From the NCBI RefSeq assembly GCF_009914755.1, contig NC_060926.1: a stretch of DNA of 64,000 bases; one strand, written 5' to 3'. Below are positions 43,466-51,747 of this stretch, one piece after another. The translations under genes were made by a program, and so were the position numbers. Positions within the stretch are counted from its first letter, which is position 1; each line of letters opens with the position of its first letter. The DNA is from the human T2T-CHM13v2.0 reference genome, Homo sapiens. The notes under the pieces are model-generated. The model searched no databases. It was not told where the DNA came from and saw only the letters and a program-made list of their open reading frames with translations.

Positions 43466-43802
43466 AGCCATCATATCCCCTGTGAACTGCATGTACACAT
43501 CCAGATGGCCAGTTCCTGCCTTAACTGATGACATTACCTTGTGAAATTCCTTTTCCTGACTCATCCTGGCTCAAAACCTCCCCGACTGAGTACCTTGTGA
43601 CCCCCAACCCTGCCCGCCTGAGAACATCCCCCTTTAACTGTAATTTTCCTTTACTTACCCAAACCCTATAAAACAGCTCCATCCCTATCTCCCTTCGCTG
43701 ACTCTCTTTTCGGACTCAGCCCGCCTGCACCCAGGTGATTAAAAAGCTTTATTGCTCACACAAAGCCTGTTTGGTGGTCTCTTCACACGGACGCAAGTGA
43801 AA
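43466..43802 (+). mobile_element. HERV-H host 5' LTR (LTR7 family, ATTAAA subtype), first ~24 bp missing
   Basis: AGCCATCATATCCCCTGTG...TATAAAA (about 43667)...GTGATTAAAAAGCTTTATTGCTCACACAAAGCCTG...GTGAAA. Confidence 0.95.
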
Positions 43803-45786
43803 TTTGGTGCCTCCCTGCCAATTGTGTCTGACCCCTTCTCTCTGTATCTCTACCCCTTCTCTACTTTTCTGGAGGGCAAGAATCCCCTGACCCCTTCTCT
43901 TCGTGTCTCTACCCCTTCTGCACTTTTCTGGAGGGCAAGAACCCCCCAACCCCTTCTCTCCGTGTCTCTACTCTCTTTTCTCTGGGCTTGCCTCCTTCAC
44001 TATGGGCAAGCTTCTGCCCTCCATTCCCCCTTCTTCTTCCTTAGCCTGTGTTCTTAAAAACCTAAAACCTCTTCAATTCACACCTGACCTAAAACCTAAA
44101 TGCCTTATTTTCTTCTGCAATGCCGCTTGACCCCAATACAAATTTGACAGTGGTTCCAAATAGCCAGAAAAATGGCACTTTCAATTTCTACATCCTACAA
44201 TATCTAAATAATTCTTATCGTAAAATAGGCAAACAGTCTGAGGTGCCTGATGTCCAGGCATTCTTTGACACCTCGGTCCCTCCCTAGTCTCTGTCCCCAA
44301 TGCGATTTGTCCCAAATCCTCCTTCTTTCCCTCTCGCCTGTCCCCTCAGTCCCAACCCCAAGTGTTGCTGAGTCTTTCTAATCTTCCTTTTCTACAGACC
44401 CATCTGACCTCTCCCCTCATCACCAGGTCAAGCTAGGTCCCAACTCTTCCTCAGCCTCCGCTCCTCCACCCTATAATCCTTTTATCACCTCCCCTCCTCA
44501 CACCCGGTCCGGCTTACAGTTTTCTTCCTGCACCTGCCCAGCAATGTCCTCTTAAAAAGTGGCTGCAGCCAAAGGCATAGTCAAGGTTGATGCTCCTTTT
44601 TCTTTATCCAACCTCTCCCAAATCAGTTAGCGTTTAGACTCTTTCATCAAATATGAAAAACCCAGCCCAGTTCACGGCCCCTTTGGCAGCAACCCTGAGA
44701 CGCTTTACAGCCCTAGACCCTGAAAGGTCAAAAGGCCGTCTTATTCTCAATATACATTTTATTTTATTACCCAATCTGCACCCAACATTAAATAAAGCTA
44801 GAAAAATTAAATTCCAGCCCTCAAACCCCACAACAGGACTTAACTAACCTCACCTTCAAGGTGTACAATAACAGAATAGAGGCAGCCAAGTAGCAACATA
44901 TTTCTGAGTTGCAATTCCTTACCTCCACTGTGAGAGAAACCTCAACCACATCTCCAGCACACAAGGACTTCTTCCAAACACCTAAACCACAGTGGCCAGG
45001 CGTTCCTCCAGGCCTGCCTCCCCCAAGAGCTTGCTACAAGTGCCAGAAATCTGACCACCGGGCCAAGGAATGCCGGCAGCCCAGGATTCCTCCTAAGCCG
45101 TGTCCCATCTGTGCGGGACCCCACTGGAAATTGGACTATCAAACTCACCCGGCAGCCACTCCCAGAGCCCCTGGAACTCTGGCCCAAGGCTCTCTGGCTC
45201 TTTCCCAGATCTTCTTCGCTTAGTGGCTGAAGACTGACGCTGCCTGATCGCCTCAGAATCTTCTTAGACCATCACAGATGCTTTAAGTAACTCTCACAGT
45301 AGAAGGTAAGTCCGTCCCCTTCTTAATCAATACTGAGGCTACCCACTCCACATTACCTTCTTTTCAAGGGCTTGTTTCCTTTGCCTCCATAACTGTTGTC
45401 GGTATTGACGGCCAGGCTTCTAAACCTCTTAAAACTCCCCAACTGTGGTGCCAACTTGCACAGCATTCTTTTATGCACTCCTTTTTAGTTATCCCCACCT
45501 GCCCAGTTCCCTTATTAGGTCAAGACATTTTAACTAATTATCTGCTTCCCTGACTATTCCTAGGCTACAGCCACACCTCGTTGCCGCCTTTTCCCCCAGT
45601 TCAAAGCCGCATTCACATCCTCCCCTTGTATCTCCCCACCTTAACCCAGAAGTATAAGATACCTCTACTCCCTCCTTGGCGACTGATCATGTACCCCTTA
45701 CCATCCCATTAAAACCTAATCACTCATACCCCACTCAATGCCAATATCCCATCCCGCAGCATGCCTTAAAAAGATTAAAGCCTGTT
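43803..45786 (+). pseudogene. HERV-H host internal region, part 1: broken PBS/leader, gag, pro, start of pol
   Basis: PBS cut after TGGTGCC; zinc knuckle CYKCQKSDHRAKEC; degenerate protease FLINTEATHS; ends AAAGCCTGTT. Confidence 0.95.
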
Positions 45787-45829
45787 TGTCTTCTTATAAT
45801 AAGAAGAAAAATAAAATGACATAGTGGTA

Positions 45830-47499
45830 AAGTGTTGGGATGGCAAAAATTTTTTGGGGTGGTATGGAGAAATAATGGGCGATGTTTCTCAGGGCTGCTT
45901 CAAGAGGGATTAGGGGTGGCACGGGAACCTAGAGTGGGAGGGATTAAGCAGAAGGAAGATTTTGTGGTAAGGGGGGATATTGTGGGGTTGTTAGAAGAAA
46001 CATTTGTTGTGTAGAATTATTGATGATGGCCTGGATACAGTTTTGTATGAATCGAAAAGCTAAACGGAGTAAGAGAAGGAGAAAAACAGGTATTAAAGGA
46101 CTAAGAATTGGGAGGACCTAGGACATCTAATTAGAGAGTGTCCAAGGGGCTTCAGTGTAATTACTTGCTTGGCTGGCAAGTTTTTAGACTCTATCCTTGA
46201 GTTTTTTATGTTGTCACACACCAGGCCAGATTGATTTAGGTAAAAACAACACTCTTCATTTAAGAATACACAGAGTCCTCCATTTCCAGCAGTGAGTAAG
46301 TCAAGGCCTCAGCGGTTTTGGAGGACAACTGCAGCTAAAGAGTCAACTTGGGCCTGGAGGACTGAAAAAGTTTGTGATATGTCTGTGATGCTAGGAGAGA
46401 AGTCATTAGAGAGGCTACAGAAGGTCGTGAAAGAGGTTGAAATGCCTGCTATTCCAGTACCAAGAGCAATAGTGGAGGCAGAAAGTCTTAAACTGACAAG
46501 CAAGGGAATTAGTGGAATAACTTTTTTGTCGTGTTGGTGTCATGAGGGGAAGAAGGAGCTCTTCAGTCCTATTTGCAAATTGAATTTTGGGAGTAAGGAA
46601 AACTAGTGTGCATGTGCCTGTCCAATTAGCAGGTATACAGAAGTATGTAGAGGATCCACAGAGGAAGAAGAGACCTTGTGCGAGGCAAAACTGGAGATGC
46701 AAAGTAAAAAGATGAGAAGGAGTGCTGCAAAGGAGTGTCCTGTACCTAGACTCCTAGGGATCCAGCTAGGGCGGCAGCCGTCAGAGGTTGTAATGGGGAC
46801 TGATGAGGTAACTGTGAAGACGGGGAGATTCAGTTTTCATGGTGTGTGAAAAAACGTTGAGTACCTACGAGCAACCTTTCACTGTTATTTTCAGGGCTGG
46901 GTATAAGTAAACAAGAAGAGGGCTTTGGAGATGAACAGTAAAGGAACGTCGAGCAGGTGAAAGTTACCTAGGGGGATTGCAGTGGGTCTTTGCCTAGAGA
47001 TACATAAAGGAGCGGCCACAGGAATAGTAATTTGTGTTGTGAGAGGTCCAAATATGGGGGGAGTAGAGTTGATATAAGGAGAAAGGTTTTTGAAGTAAGT
47101 GTGGAATAGGGTGGCAGCTTGCTGATGTGAAATGTCTGGGGAGGTCTTGCTTGACCTGTCTAGAAAGTAAATAAGTTCTTCAGGAGGGTAAAGGTGAGGG
47201 CTGTTAAAGGAAGTTCAGAGGTGTAAGGAGACAGGAGATATTGCCCAGTCTGTGTTTAAGGTGGAGACAGCTGTGTAGGCACTGGAAGAAAGGGAAATGC
47301 AAAGCCAGCAGTTGTTCGCTAAGGAGAGATTAGAAATGGCTAGGAGAGAATGAGTAAGGTTGATAGTGTGGTGGAGATGGCTGGGGAGAAGTAGAGTGTG
47401 GCAAAAGAATGGGAATGAGAATACGAGTGACTCTAAAAGTAAAGAATAGAACTTCATCAGGGTGAAATTATTGGAGGGTCCCCTGCCAGCAAAGATCAT
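45830..47499 (-). pseudogene. HERV-H env remnant of the nested element
   Basis: signal peptide MIFAGR..LMKFYSLLL; GLFFLCGSSTY; ISD QVDSLAAVVLQNR*GLDLLTA with a CGA>TGA stop; frameshifts. Confidence 0.9.
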
Positions 47500-49390
47500 C
47501 TATCCACTCTAAGAGGGAATTAAGAGTTGCCAGTCCTGGGCATGGGCAAATCCTCAAGCTTAATGTGTAGGAAAGGGAGCAGGTCCGAATAATCCCTGAG
47601 GAGGAGTAGTAGAATAGCAGATGGAACACTGAGAAGTTATTTCCTTGAGGATAGATTTCCATGATGGAAAGGAAATGAGAGGTTCTGAGAGGTGGGCTGG
47701 TGGCTTGTACTATAGCATAGCCTGCCTTTGCTGGTGTGTGGCGATTAGGCCTGGTGGAACTGCGATCAATAAACCAAGTGTGTTCAGGGTGAGGAACAGG
47801 AAAGAAGGAAATATGGGGAAATGGGGTGAATGTCAGGTGGATCAGAGAGATACAGTCATGGGAGTCAGGTGTGGTACCCGGAATATTGTGGGAGGCTGGA
47901 TTGAAGTCCGGGCCAGGAACAATGGTAATTGTGGGAGACTCAACAAAGAGTGAGTACAGCTGAAGGAGCCAGGGAGCAGAAAGTATATGTGTCAGGTGTG
48001 AAGAAGAAAATAGATTTTGGAAGTTAGGAGAACTGTAGAGAGTGAGTTGAGCATAGTTCGTGATTTTTTGGGCCTCTAAAAGTATTAAAGCAGCGGCAGC
48101 CACTCTATGCAGACATGAGGGCTAGGCTAAAACAGTAAGGTGCAGTTGTTTGGACAGAAGGGCTACAGGGTGCGGTCCCAGCTGTTGTGTAAGAATTCTG
48201 ACCGCACTAACCATGCCTAGGAAGGAAAGGAGTTGTTTTGTAGAAGGGATTGGATTTTGGGAGATTAGTCCGACATGATCAGCAGGGAGAGCACGTGTTT
48301 TTATGAGAATTATGCCAAGATAGATAACAGATGAAGAGGAAATTTGGGCTTGACTGAAGTAATAGGAGCTGTCTGTGAAGACTTGCAGCTAATTTGCTGA
48401 GCCTGATGGGTGTCAGGGACAGTCCAAGTGAAAGCAAAGAGAGGCTGGGATGAAGGGTGCAAAGGAATAGTAAAGAAAGCATGTTTGAGATCCAGAACAG
48501 AATAATGGGTTGTGGAGGGAGGTATTGAGGCTAGGAGAGTATATGGGTTTGGCACCATGGGGTGGATAGGCAAAACAATTTGGTTGATAAGGCGCAGATC
48601 CTGAACTAACCTGTAAGCCTTGTCTGGTTTTAGGACAGGTAAAATGGGGGAATTGTAAGGGGAGTTTATAGGCTTTAAAAGGCCATGCTGTAGCAGGCGA
48701 GTGATAACAGGCTTTAATCCTTTTAAGGCATGCTGTGGGATGGGATATTGGCATTGAGCGGGGTAAGAGTGATTAGGTTTTAATGGGATGGTAAGGGGTG
48801 CATGATCGGTCACCAAGGAGGGAGTAGAGGTGTCTTATACTTGTGGGTTAAGGTGGGGAGATACAAGGTGAGGATGTGAAGGAGGCTTTGAACTGGGGGA
48901 AAAGGTGGCAACGAGGTGTGGTTGTGGCTCAGGAATAGTCAGGGAAGCAGATAACTTAGTTAAAGTGTCTTGGCCTAATAAGGGAACTGGGCAGGTGGGG
49001 ATAACTAAAAAGGAGTGCTTAAAAGAGTATTGGCTAAGTTGGCACCAGAGTTGGGGAGTTTTAAGAGGTTTAGAAGCCTGGCCATCAATACCCACAACAG
49101 TTATGAAGGCAAGGGAAACAGGCCCTTGAAAAGAATGTAATGTGGAGTGGTTAGCCTCCATAGAGATTAAGAAGGGGATGGACTTACCCACCACTGTGAG
49201 AGTTACCCGAAGCTCAGCATCCAAGATGGTTTAGGGGGCTTCCAAGGTGATCGGGCAGTGTCAGTCTTCAGACTCTAAACTGAGAAGATCTGGGAAGGAG
49301 TCAGTTAGAGAGTCTTGGGCCAGATTTCCAGGGGCTCTGTCAGTGGCTGCCAGGTGAGTTGAACAGTCTGATTTTCCATGGGGTCCCACA
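47500..49390 (-). pseudogene. HERV-H gag end/pro/pol remnant of the nested element
   Basis: RT motifs NSPILPVLKP, YRLVQDLR, LDLKHAFFTIPL; RNase H WFIDRSS; stops and deletions. Confidence 0.92.
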
Positions 49391-49846
49391 CACCCCCAGA
49401 AAAGTGGTACTTGCTGCTAAGGTTGAAGGACCAAGGCAGGCATCCCCATGTGGTCAGACACCTTTGAAACGTGGGTGAGTAATCAGGCAGGCGTCCCCGC
49501 GTGATTAAACACCAAGGGAAGAATGTCTTCCTGAGTCTGTGACTGGCATCAGAGTTTTGGGTCCACGGATGAAACGCATCTCCTTCATCTCTACCAGAAA
49601 AGGAAAGGAACTGAAATTAAGAGAAGGGAGAGATTGAAGTGTGGCGCCAAGATTGAAAGGAGAAAGAGGTTGAGGGATAGCAAGAGAGGTTGGAGAAGAG
49701 AGTAAAAAGAGGCTGCTTACCGGATTTAAAATTGGTGAGATGTTCCTTGGGCTGTTTGGTCTGAGGACCAGAGGTCGTACGTGGATCTTTCTCATGGAAC
49801 AAAGAGCAGGAGGACAGGGGATTGATCTCCTAAGGGAGGTTCCCCG

Positions 49847-49864
49847 ATCCGAGTCACGGCACCA
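49847..49864 (-). other. Primer binding site, tRNA-His (intact)
   Basis: minus strand reads TGGTGCCGTGACTCGGAT, 2 nt after the LTR end. Confidence 0.95.
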
Positions 49865-49866
49865 AA

Positions 49867-50281
49867 TTTCACTCGTGGCCATGTGAAGAGACCACCAAAC
49901 AGGCTTTCTGTGATCAACAAGGCTGTTAATTTCACCTGGGTGCAGGCAGGATGAGTCCAAAAAGAGAGTCAGTGAAGGGAGATAGGGGTGGGGCCGTTTT
50001 TATAAGATTTGGGTAGGTAAAGGAAAATTATAGTGAAAGGAGGGTTGTTCTCTGCCAGGCAGGAGTGGGGGTCACAAGGTGCTCAGTAGGGGAGCTTCTG
50101 AGCCACGATGAGCCAGGAGAAGGAATTTCACAAGATAATGTCATCGCTTAAGGCAGGAACAGTCCATTTTCACTTCTTTTGTGGTGGAATGTCATCATTT
50201 AAGGCAGGAACCGACCATCTGGATGTGTACGTGCAGGTCACAGGGGATATGATGGCTTAGCTTGGGCTCAGAGGCCTGACA
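49867..50281 (-). promoter_or_regulatory. Complete LTR7 (type I, two U3 repeats) of the nested element; candidate promoter firing leftward
   Basis: minus strand starts TGTCAGGCCTCTGAGCCCAAGCTAAGCC, two GTTCCTGCCTTAA..GATGACATT repeats, TATAAAA, ends GTGAAA. Confidence 0.9.
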
Positions 50282-51485
50282 CTGTTATCACTCTCCTGCT
50301 ACAGCATGGTCTTTTAAAGCATATAAACTCTCCTTACAATTCCCCCTTTTTACCTGTCCTAAAGCCAGACAAGCCTTACAGGTTAGTTCAGGATCTGCGC
50401 CTTATCAACCGAATTGTTTTGCCTATCCACCCCATGGTGGTGCCAAACCCATGTACTCTCCTATCCTCAATACCTCCCTCCACAACCCATTATTCTGCTC
50501 TAGATCTCAAACATGCTTTCTTTACTATTCCTTTGCACCCTTCATCCCAGCCTCTCTTCACTTTCACTTGGACTGACCCTGACACCCATCAGGCTCAGCA
50601 AATTACCTGGGCTGTACTGCCGCAAGGCTTCACAGACAGCTCCCATTACTTCAGTCAAGCCCAAATTTCATCCTCATCTGTTACCTATCTCGGCATAATT
50701 CTCATAAAAACACACGTGCTCTCCCTGCTGATTGTGTCCCGCTAATCTCCCAAACCTCAATCCCTTCTACAAAACAGCAACTCCTTTCCTTCCTAGGCAT
50801 GGTTAATGCAGTCAGAATTCTTACACAAGAGCCAGGACCACGCCCTGTAGCCTTTCTGTCCAAACAACTTGACCTTACTATTTTAGCCTAGCCCTCATGT
50901 CTGCATGCAGCGGCTGCCACTGCTTTAATACTTTTAGAAGCCCCAAAAATCACAAACTATGCTCAACTTACTCTCTACAGTTCTCCTAACTTCCAAAATC
51001 TATTTTCTTCCTCACACCTGACGCATATACTTTCTGCTCCCCGGCTCCTTCAGCTGTACTCACTCTTTGTTGAGTCTCCCACAATTACCATTGTTCCTGG
51101 CCCAGACTTCAATCCGGCCTCCCACATTATTCCTGATACCACACCTGAACCTCATGACTGTATCTCTCTGATCCACCTGACATTCACCCCATTTCCCCAT
51201 ATTTCCTTCTTTCCTGTTCCTCACCCTGATCACACTTGGTTTACTGATGGCAGTTCCACCAGGCCTAATCACCACACACTAGCAAAGGCAGGCTATGCTA
51301 TAGTACAAGCCACTAGCCTGCCTCTTAGAACCTCTCATTTCCTTTCCATCGTGGAAATCTATCCTCAAAGAAATCACTTCTCAATGTTCCATCTGCTATT
51401 CTACTACCCCTCAAGGATTGCTCAGGCCCCCTCCCTTTCCTACACATCAAGCTCGAGGATTTGCCCCCGCCCAGGACTGGCAAAC
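50282..51485 (+). pseudogene. HERV-H host internal region, part 2 (pol remnant; env absent)
   Basis: LDLKHAFFTIPLHP, WAVLPQGFTDS, YxDD region deleted; joins straight into the LTR after CCAGGACTGGCAAAC. Confidence 0.95.
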
Positions 51486-51747
51486 TGTGAAATTCCTTTT
51501 CCTGGCTCATCCTGGCTCAAAAGCTCCCCCACTGAGAACCTTGTGACCCCACCCCTCCCCACCAGAGAACATCCCCCTTTGACTGTAATTTTCCTTTACC
51601 TACCCAAATCCTATAAATCGGCCCCACCCCTATCTCCCTTCGCTGACTCACTTTTCAGACTCAGCTCGCCTGCACCCAGGTGATTAAAAAGCTTTATTGC
51701 TCACACAAAGCCTGTTTGGTGGTCTCTTCTCACCAACGCGAGTGAAA
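51486..51747 (+). mobile_element. HERV-H host 3' LTR, 5' part of U3 deleted
   Basis: TGTGAAATTCCTTTTCC...GTGATTAAAAAG...GAGTGAAA; shares private variants (CCTTTTCC, GAACATCCC) with the LTR at 43466. Confidence 0.93.

What the first reader, a model, noticed from the sequence alone, without database searches (positions are those of the whole stretch)
45782..50286. One-LTR HERV-H integrated antisense into another HERV-H, ending at a cryptic att-like CA inside the PPT
Seen: a 4.5-kb antisense HERV-H interrupts the host pol and is bracketed by an exact 5-bp duplication (CTGTT). One end is a normal U3 start (TGTCAGG on the minus strand). The other end has no LTR: it reads ...TATAAGAAGACA|AACAG, stopping at a CA in the polypurine tract. 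Recalled knowledge, to be verified: the HERV-H PPT/U3 border is AAGAAGACA-GGAA-TGTCAGG, and integrase joins after CA, removing 2 nt per end. CA-N4-TG is the geometry of a 2-LTR circle junction. Inference: a one-LTR circle, or a linear DNA ending in the PPT, was processed at this pseudo-junction, lost GGAA and was integrated. GACA also mirrors the U3 end better than this element's own U5 end (GTGAAA). One-LTR circles are normally regarded as dead ends, so this would be a germline fossil of an unusual integration route.
Basis: partly seen in the sequence, partly recalled or inferred. Interest (0 to 1): 0.88.

Follow-up and report, generated by a model that had tools for sequence, protein, structure and literature searches.

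The report
One-LTR HERV-H proviruses joined at PPT
A human endogenous retrovirus copy with only one LTR was inserted through a retroviral-type joining that used a CA inside its polypurine tract as a viral end, and at least seven more copies in the same genome were made the same way.

Summary
Window 45787-50281 (minus strand) is a 4495-bp HERV-H. It starts at the normal U3 start (TGTCAGG), carries one 415-bp LTR and a tRNA-His primer binding site, and stops at ...AAGAAGACA. It has no 3' LTR and is flanked by an exact CTGTT duplication of the host HERV-H pol.

The structure recurs. Among about 504 HERV-H 3' ends carrying a 15-base anchor, 9 stop at this same CA. Eight of the 9 have an exact 5-bp duplication directly abutting both ends, at eight different sites. 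That excludes later deletion, chance and assembly error.

It shows integrase-type concerted joining with the PPT CA as the right-hand end. The normal U5 end is GAAA, not CA. The PPT/U3 border has the CA-N4-TG geometry of a two-LTR circle junction.

The precursor (a one-LTR circle, nicked or closed, or a cryptic site on linear DNA) remains inferred. Nine literature searches of the open-access library found no description.

The parts
45782..45786 (+). Left copy of the 5-bp target-site duplication (CTGTT), part of the host HERV-H pol
   Evidence: The paralogous pol stretch inside the insert has one CTGTT only.
45787..50281 (-). One-LTR HERV-H insert, 4495 bp: 5' LTR, primer binding site, and internal region up to the CA in the polypurine tract. 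No 3' LTR.
45787..45795 (-). Right-hand end of the insert: AAGAAGACA of the polypurine tract, joined to host DNA after the CA. Canonical copies continue GGAA and then U3.
49867..50281 (-). The only LTR (LTR7-like, 415 bp). It starts TGTCAGG at 50281 and ends GTGAAA at 49867.
49847..49864 (-). Primer binding site (tRNA-His type), separated from the LTR end by TT
   Evidence: The tRNA-His assignment is recalled knowledge.
50282..50286 (+). Right copy of the target-site duplication (CTGTT)
43466..45786 (+). Host HERV-H, left part: a 5' LTR lacking about its first 24 bases (about 43466-43811), then the internal region up to the insertion point in pol
50282..51747 (+). Host HERV-H, right part: pol (start of reverse transcriptase) to 51483, then directly an LTR fragment at 51486-51747 ending GTGAAA. 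The host's own env side and PPT are deleted.

Best explanation
A HERV-H DNA molecule carrying a single LTR was inserted by the virus's own integrase in a normal concerted reaction with a 5-bp stagger. The left end was the ordinary U3 terminus. The right end was not U5 but the CA inside the polypurine tract, which lies 2 nt before the inferred plus-strand primer cut and 4 nt before the TG of U3. The four bases GGAA were lost, two from each end.

The most economical precursor is a one-LTR circular form. This could be the nicked circle that arises after the second strand transfer of reverse transcription, or a closed one-LTR circle. In such a form the PPT/U3 border (GACA-GGAA-TGTC) sits where a two-LTR junction (GAAA-TTAA-TGTC for this virus) would sit. 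The border was opened there.

Shown by sequence: the structure of the ends, the 5-bp duplications, and the recurrence.

Inferred: that the enzyme was integrase, the 2+2 nt trimming, and the circular nature of the precursor.
For: (1) Ends and duplication in the window.

(2) Canonical border. GACA-GGAA-T/CGTCAGG was found in 27 of 29 other copies. Sixteen of 21 HERV-H hits and 12 of 18 HERV-H hits are single-base variants of GGAA followed by the LTR.

(3) Recurrence. Nine HERV-H copies stop at the same CA, out of about 504 anchor-bearing 3' ends. The 504 is made up of 465 counted but not read, 21 HERV-H hits and 18.

(4) Eight of the 9 have exact 5-bp duplications directly abutting both ends, at different sites:
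- window: AACAG in element sense
- C4:155.1M: GTGTT
- C16: CTGAT
- C3: GTTGC
- C9: GTCAG, inside an Alu whose intact relatives in the window have one GTCAG
- C5: TGGAC and C4:159.4M: GTAAT
- chrX: ATAGC
All junction pairs are printed.

(5) Five bp is also the duplication of a normal two-LTR copy: CTACC in L006/L138.

(6) The normal right end is GAAA followed by TT and the primer binding site. Two nt are therefore trimmed at U5, and by symmetry AA at U3, which puts the PPT CA exactly 2 nt from the plus-strand discontinuity.

(7) The terminal GACA of the PPT end equals the terminal GACA of the U3 end on its transferred strand.

(8) Precedent: integrases of HIV-1 and foamy virus cut the palindromic two-LTR junction to give CA-3' ends that integrate, and one-LTR circles arise during reverse transcription or by recombination (PMC4372172, passages read).
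Against: - No orthologous empty or filled sites in other primates could be examined, so a two-LTR ancestor is excluded only by the improbability of eight exact deletions.
- One of the nine (C19:30.96M) has no abutting duplication. The expected 5-mer lies 10 nt further on, after filler.
- The scan saw only copies with an intact 15-base anchor and only breaks at this CA. A pile-up relative to neighbouring positions was not measured.
- The mirror-image class (primer binding site joined directly to host DNA) was not found: 0 of 10 hits. Not every discontinuity of a circular intermediate is used, and sequence recognition of GACA must be part of the story.
- In HIV-1 experiments, one-LTR circle amounts did not change when integration resumed (PMC4372172, passage).
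- Sequence alone cannot show the substrate form.
Confidence: 0.75

Rival explanations
1. Integrase used the PPT CA as a cryptic internal site on an otherwise complete two-LTR linear DNA. The 3' LTR hung off as a branch and was trimmed during gap repair.
For: It gives the same final structure and the same 5-bp duplication and needs no circular form. Cryptic use of ends by integrases is discussed for aberrant HIV integrations (PMC5041404; search listing and start of abstract only).
Against: 3' processing normally needs the CA close to a DNA end (established knowledge). Many other GACA sites inside the element are not seen as ends, although this was not scanned. The used CA lies exactly 2 nt from the inferred plus-strand discontinuity, which points to a role for a nick or junction at that spot.
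Confidence: 0.13
2. An ordinary two-LTR provirus integrated, and GGAA plus the whole 3' LTR was deleted later.
For: Deletions in old proviruses are common. The host element in this window has two, and L109 shows an LTR truncated by deletion.
Against: The deletion would have to run from exactly after the CA to exactly the last LTR base, leaving the duplication abutting, in eight independent loci. The PPT end (..GACA) and the LTR end (..GAAA) share only one terminal base, so microhomology gives no hotspot.
Confidence: 0.04
3. The copy was inserted by host or LINE-1 machinery (a processed-pseudogene route or capture at a break), not by a retroviral integrase.
For: LINE-1-mediated copies are known for HERV-W (recalled, not checked here).
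Against: The copy starts at the first base of U3 rather than at R. It has no poly(A) tail and ends in CA. It has a duplication of exactly 5 bp, the same as a normal HERV-H copy.
Confidence: 0.02
4. Assembly error, or copies spread by segmental duplication.
For: None found.
Against: There are nine loci on seven chromosomes, each with different flanks and a different duplication. The copies are 85-91% identical to the window copy over the last 314 bases.
Confidence: 0.01

Closest known systems
Integrase cleavage of the palindromic two-LTR circle junction (HIV-1, foamy virus), giving CA-3' ends that integrate (PMC4372172, passages read)
   Same: A CA-N4-TG arrangement with inverted terminal bases is opened 2 nt on each side. 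The product integrates with a normal duplication.
   Different: Here the right half of the junction is not U5 but the polypurine tract. The product carries one LTR. The evidence is a germline fossil record, not an assay. The passages read in that paper assign no role to one-LTR circles.
Canonical HERV-H (LTR7/HERVH-int) two-LTR provirus
   Same: Same LTR start, primer binding site, internal sequence and 5-bp duplication.
   Different: The 3' LTR and the four bases before it are absent. The right end is GACA of the PPT instead of GAAA of U5.
Solo LTR from LTR-LTR recombination (PMC6298018 and PMC4905674, passages read)
   Same: One LTR flanked by the original duplication.
   Different: A solo LTR has lost the internal region. 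These copies keep it and lack only the 3' LTR. Recombination between LTRs cannot produce that.
Aberrant HIV-1 integrations under integrase inhibitors or mutants (PMC5041404; listing and start of abstract only)
   Same: Integration events that do not use both normal LTR ends.
   Different: Those events come with deletions, duplications, insertions or inversions of host DNA. Here the target is intact, with the regular 5-bp duplication.
HIV-1 3'-PPT mutants that replicate from one-LTR circles without integration (PMC11912779 and PMC5974467; listing and start of abstract only)
   Same: They link the PPT/U3 border with one-LTR circular DNA.
   Different: There the circles are expressed without being integrated. 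Here a one-LTR form was integrated.

Membership tests
HERV-H provirus | LTR7-type LTR starting TGTCAGG, tRNA-His-type primer binding site, HERV-H internal sequence | tested here: met
   The last 314 bases are 91-92% identical to 39 listed HERV-H copies of the same genome.
HERV-H provirus | Two LTRs bracketing the internal region | tested here: not met
   No LTR at the 45787 end.
Retroviral concerted integration | Target-site duplication of the length typical for the virus, directly abutting both ends | tested here: met
   CTGTT in the window. Exact 5-mers abut both ends in 8 of 9 one-LTR copies. A 5-bp duplication was also seen in a normal copy (L006/L138).
Retroviral concerted integration | Both joined ends are LTR termini (U3 and U5) | tested here: not met
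   The right end is the PPT CA.
Retroviral concerted integration | Catalysis by the viral integrase | not testable with these tools
   Inferred from the duplication length and the terminal CA.
Integrase opening of an LTR-LTR circle junction | CA-N4-TG with inverted terminal bases at the site that is opened | tested here: met
   GACA-GGAA-TGTC in 27 of 29 copies. The outer four bases are a perfect inverted repeat.
Integrase opening of an LTR-LTR circle junction | The substrate is a circular viral DNA | not testable with these tools
   Sequence records only the product.
Solo LTR | Internal region removed together with one LTR | tested here: not met
   About 4.1 kb of internal sequence is retained.
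LINE-1-mediated processed copy | Starts at R, has a poly(A) tail and a long variable duplication | tested here: not met
   Starts at U3 base 1, ends GACA, exact 5-bp duplication.

The most novel reading that the evidence does not exclude
One-LTR circular DNA of a retrovirus was a productive integration substrate in the primate germline. The HERV-H integrase opened it at the PPT/U3 border, which mimics a two-LTR junction. This produced roughly 2% of the HERV-H copies that keep the 3' anchor: 9 of about 504 scanned, and likely several dozen genome-wide. Circular forms would then not always be dead ends. A polypurine tract ending in CA-NN would be a hidden second attachment site.
Probability: 0.45. 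Interest if true: 0.85.

Novelty: new variant of a known kind. Interest (0 to 1): 0.8.

Why it matters
Textbook retroviral integration joins the two LTR ends of a linear DNA, and circular forms are treated as by-products. These copies are eight independent, heritable records of an integrase-type reaction that used a non-LTR end next to the plus-strand primer site.

- It gives a sequence rule that can be tested in any genome: a CA two bases before the PPT cut, mirrored by the U3 end. ERV families with that arrangement should show one-LTR copies ending at the CA. Families without it should not.
- It bears on how unfinished or circular reverse-transcription products are handled.
- It bears on ERV censuses, where such copies are filed as 'truncated' without regard to how they arose.
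- It adds to HERV-H biology. These copies keep a promoter LTR but cannot collapse to solo LTRs by LTR-LTR recombination.

Tried and rejected
- a 12-base pattern was far too unspecific (3275 hits, fewer than its reversed control).
The hits were read afterwards through small fetches.
- the junction pattern found nothing near the C5 and C19 copies. Direct fetches then showed an exact duplication at C5, whose LTR start carries two mutations, and none abutting at C19.
- The host element could not serve as a same-window reference. Its PPT is deleted and its 5' LTR start is missing.
- Normal copies checked for the 5-bp rule, 4 tried:
  - L006/L138 gave a clean CTACC.
  - L007/L137 gave AATGG, with one A ambiguous against the LTR end.
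  - L014/L135 gave non-matching flanks.
  - L018/L136 missed the LTR.
- The mirror class at the primer binding site gave 0 of 10. The number of copies this pattern could have seen was not counted.
- Literature searches (one search failed on syntax) and passages in PMC6298018 and PMC4905674 gave no description of one-LTR proviruses joined at a PPT CA. Subscription-only papers, including the early RTVL-H/HERV-H papers, are outside the searched library.
Full report
**What is there**

Searches show the two junctions exactly as described. On the + strand the host reads ...AAAGC-CTGTT and then TGTCTTCTTATAA... from 45787. At the other side it reads ...GGCCTGACA up to 50281, and then CTGTT-ATCACTC. 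Read on the minus strand, the insert (4495 bp) begins TGTCAGGCCTCT and ends TATAAGAAGACA.

Its first 415 bases are an LTR7-like LTR ending GTGAAA. Then come TT and an 18-base primer binding site of the tRNA-His type. The tRNA assignment is recalled. A self-comparison of the window finds no LTR sequence at the 45787 end.

The host is another HERV-H on the + strand. Its sequence is colinear across the insert, and the two matching blocks overlap by exactly the five duplicated bases. The insert's own paralogous pol stretch carries a single CTGTT. CTGTT is therefore a true target-site duplication. The host frame to the right of the insert matches the start of the reverse-transcriptase domain (RVT_1, E 7.9e-07, 29.4 bits against a cut-off of 29.6).

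The host copy is itself damaged. About 24 bases are missing from the start of its 5' LTR. It also jumps from pol at 51483 straight into an LTR fragment at 51486-51747, so it offers no PPT for comparison.

**The canonical border**

The last 314 bases of the insert were used to search the window's own genome (1148 candidates, 40 scored, 30 loci kept). Of the 29 loci other than the window itself:
- 27 read ...AAGAAGACA, then GGAA, then an LTR start (TGTCAGG, or CGTCAGG in 6 of them, or a point variant);
- 1 reads AGAA and then the LTR;
- 1 (C4:155.1M) stops at the CA and continues in unrelated DNA.

The window copy ends at the CA four bases before the TG of U3.

**Recurrence**

I scanned the genome for a 15-base anchor ending in ...AAGAAGACA, followed by something other than GG.

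With a non-G next, there were 33 hits. After reading all of them:
- 12 are unrelated DNA;
- 16 are HERV-H with a one-base variant of GGAA followed by the LTR;
- 5 are HERV-H that stop at the CA: the window copy, C5:96.7M, C16:53.6M, C19:30.96M and chrX:112.5M.

With G and then a non-G next, there were 23 hits. These were read:
- 5 are unrelated;
- 12 are one-base variants followed by the LTR;
- 1 has an Alu inserted just after GACAGA;
- 1 is unclear (an LTR start cut short by a deletion);
- 4 stop at the CA: C4:155.1M, C3:57.3M, C4:159.4M and C9:119.0M.

The anchor followed by GG occurs 465 times, with no hit for the reversed control pattern. These were counted, not read.

So 9 of about 504 anchor-bearing HERV-H 3' ends (1.8%) stop at this CA. 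The anchor requires 15 unmutated bases and one search had 1148 candidates, so the true number is probably higher.

**Duplications**

For each of the nine copies, I compared the five bases after the CA with the five bases before the LTR start.

A predicted junction pattern (5-mer plus LTR start, at most one mismatch) found the expected partner on the same strand for four copies:

| Locus | Distance upstream (bp) | Duplication |
|---|---|---|
| C4:155.1M | 5346 | GTGTT |
| C16 | 5833 | CTGAT |
| C3 | 5316 | GTTGC |
| C9 | 5581 | GTCAG |

Direct fetches showed three more:

| Locus | Element length (bp) | Duplication |
|---|---|---|
| C5 | 5593 | TGGAC |
| C4:159.4M | 5376 | GTAAT |
| chrX | 5494 | ATAGC |

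With the window copy, 8 of 9 have an exact 5-bp duplication directly abutting both ends. All junction pairs are printed.

The C9 copy sits inside an Alu. Two intact Alus in the window have a single GTCAG at that place, which gives a second natural empty-site control besides the host pol.

The ninth copy (C19, 4088 bp) has GAGGG before its LTR and CGACT after the CA. GAGGG does occur 10 bases further on, after a filler that itself ends in GACA. This copy is left open.

**What the ends say about mechanism**

Normal 3' LTRs end ...ATGAAA and then run into unrelated flank (28 loci). After a 5' LTR, the same GAAA is followed by TT and the primer binding site. So the normal right end is GAAA, not CA, with two bases (TT) trimmed. 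A clean 5-bp duplication (CTACC) was confirmed for one normal two-LTR copy.

By the same two-base rule at the left end (established for retroviral integrases), the unintegrated U3 end would begin AA-TGTCAGG. The plus-strand primer cut would then fall after GACAGG. This is inference.

That places the PPT CA exactly two bases from the plus-strand discontinuity, which is the geometry of a 3'-processing site. It also makes the PPT/U3 border (GACA-GGAA-TGTC) a close mimic of this virus's hypothetical two-LTR junction (GAAA-TTAA-TGTC). Its outer inverted repeat is better than that of the real junction.

A molecule that reads U3-R-U5-...-PPT from end to end is a circular permutation of the genome opened at that border. 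The simplest source is a one-LTR circle. One candidate is the nicked circle present after the second strand transfer, in which the plus strand ends at this very spot. The other is a closed circle cut on both strands, as integrases of HIV-1 and foamy virus cut two-LTR junctions (PMC4372172, passages read). The same paper says one-LTR circles arise during reverse transcription or by recombination. It saw no sign that they feed integration in HIV-1.

**Rivals**

Later deletion of GGAA plus the 3' LTR would have to be exact to the base in eight loci, and only one base of homology joins the two breakpoints. I give this about 4%.

Use of the same CA as an internal site on a complete linear DNA, with the 3' LTR trimmed off in repair, gives the same product and cannot be excluded (about 13%).

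LINE-1 or end-joining routes are contradicted by the U3 start, the lack of poly(A) and the fixed 5-bp duplication. Assembly error or segmental duplication is contradicted by nine loci with different flanks.

A search for the mirror class found none among 10 hits: 5 were point variants, 1 was a small deletion and 4 were unrelated DNA. In that class the primer binding site would be joined directly to host DNA and the 5' LTR would be missing. The denominator was not counted, so this is weak. It does suggest that a discontinuity alone is not enough and that the GACA is recognised.

**Comparison and novelty**

The element is a member of HERV-H by sequence but fails the two-LTR criterion. The insertion meets the duplication criterion of concerted integration but fails 'both ends are LTR termini'. 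It works like integrase opening of a circle junction. Membership in that process cannot be tested from sequence.

It is not a solo LTR, not a processed copy, and not the rearranging type of aberrant integration described for HIV (PMC5041404; listing and abstract start only).

Eight full-text searches and passages of two HERV-H census papers gave no description of such copies. Those papers lump 'truncated' or 'partial' ERVs together. The early subscription literature on RTVL-H could not be searched, so prior description cannot be ruled out.

**Verdict**

The substrate form is still inferred. I rate it a new variant of a known kind (retroviral integration through a cryptic end in the polypurine tract), interest 0.8.

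Noticed in passing
L002-L030 (3' LTR ends); window 49867 and 51747: HERV-H LTRs end in ...TGAAA, not in the CA usual for retroviral LTR ends. After the 5' LTR, two bases (TT) precede the primer binding site. The integrase of this virus therefore normally joined after GAAA on the U5 side and after GACA on the U3 side.
   Followed up: partly
L090 with L120 (G000:C19:30961572-30965659, minus strand): The ninth one-LTR copy has no abutting duplication. After the PPT CA come 10 extra bases that again end in GACA, and only then the 5-mer (GAGGG) that precedes the LTR. This may be a filler or a second pseudo-end.
   Followed up: partly
L104 (G000:C11:70229625-70229642, minus strand): A full-length Alu start follows directly after GACAGA, so an Alu appears to have inserted into the four-base spacer between the PPT CA and U3 of a normal copy.
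   Followed up: no
L004, L005, L011, L012, L015, L024: Six of 28 normal copies read CGTCAGG instead of TGTCAGG at the start of the 3' LTR. This is a CpG where the integrase-relevant TG is expected. It may mark a subfamily or be a recurrent change.
   Followed up: no
window 49188-49398 (minus strand): The first exon of the predicted lncRNA LOC107985865 lies inside the one-LTR insert (insert positions 884-1094, downstream of its LTR and primer binding site). It is spliced to exons left of the host element. The transcript model therefore depends on the insert.
   Followed up: no
window 43466-43811 and 51483-51747: The host HERV-H lacks about the first 24 bases of its 5' LTR. It also has a deletion from pol directly into the middle of its 3' LTR (LTR position about 150), so its duplication could not be checked.
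   Followed up: partly
L014 with L135 (G000:C4:135.44M): In a normal-looking two-LTR copy, the flank before the nearest 5' LTR start (TAATC) does not match the flank after the 3' LTR (ATGGT). It may be a recombinant between two proviruses, or the LTR found may belong to another element.
   Followed up: no
L083, L088, L094, L096, L115, L118: In a subset of 3' LTRs the sequence after ...GAGCCCAAGC jumps to CTGCACGTATACATCCAGATGGCC. This looks like a subfamily-specific U3 deletion, not a break.
   Followed up: no
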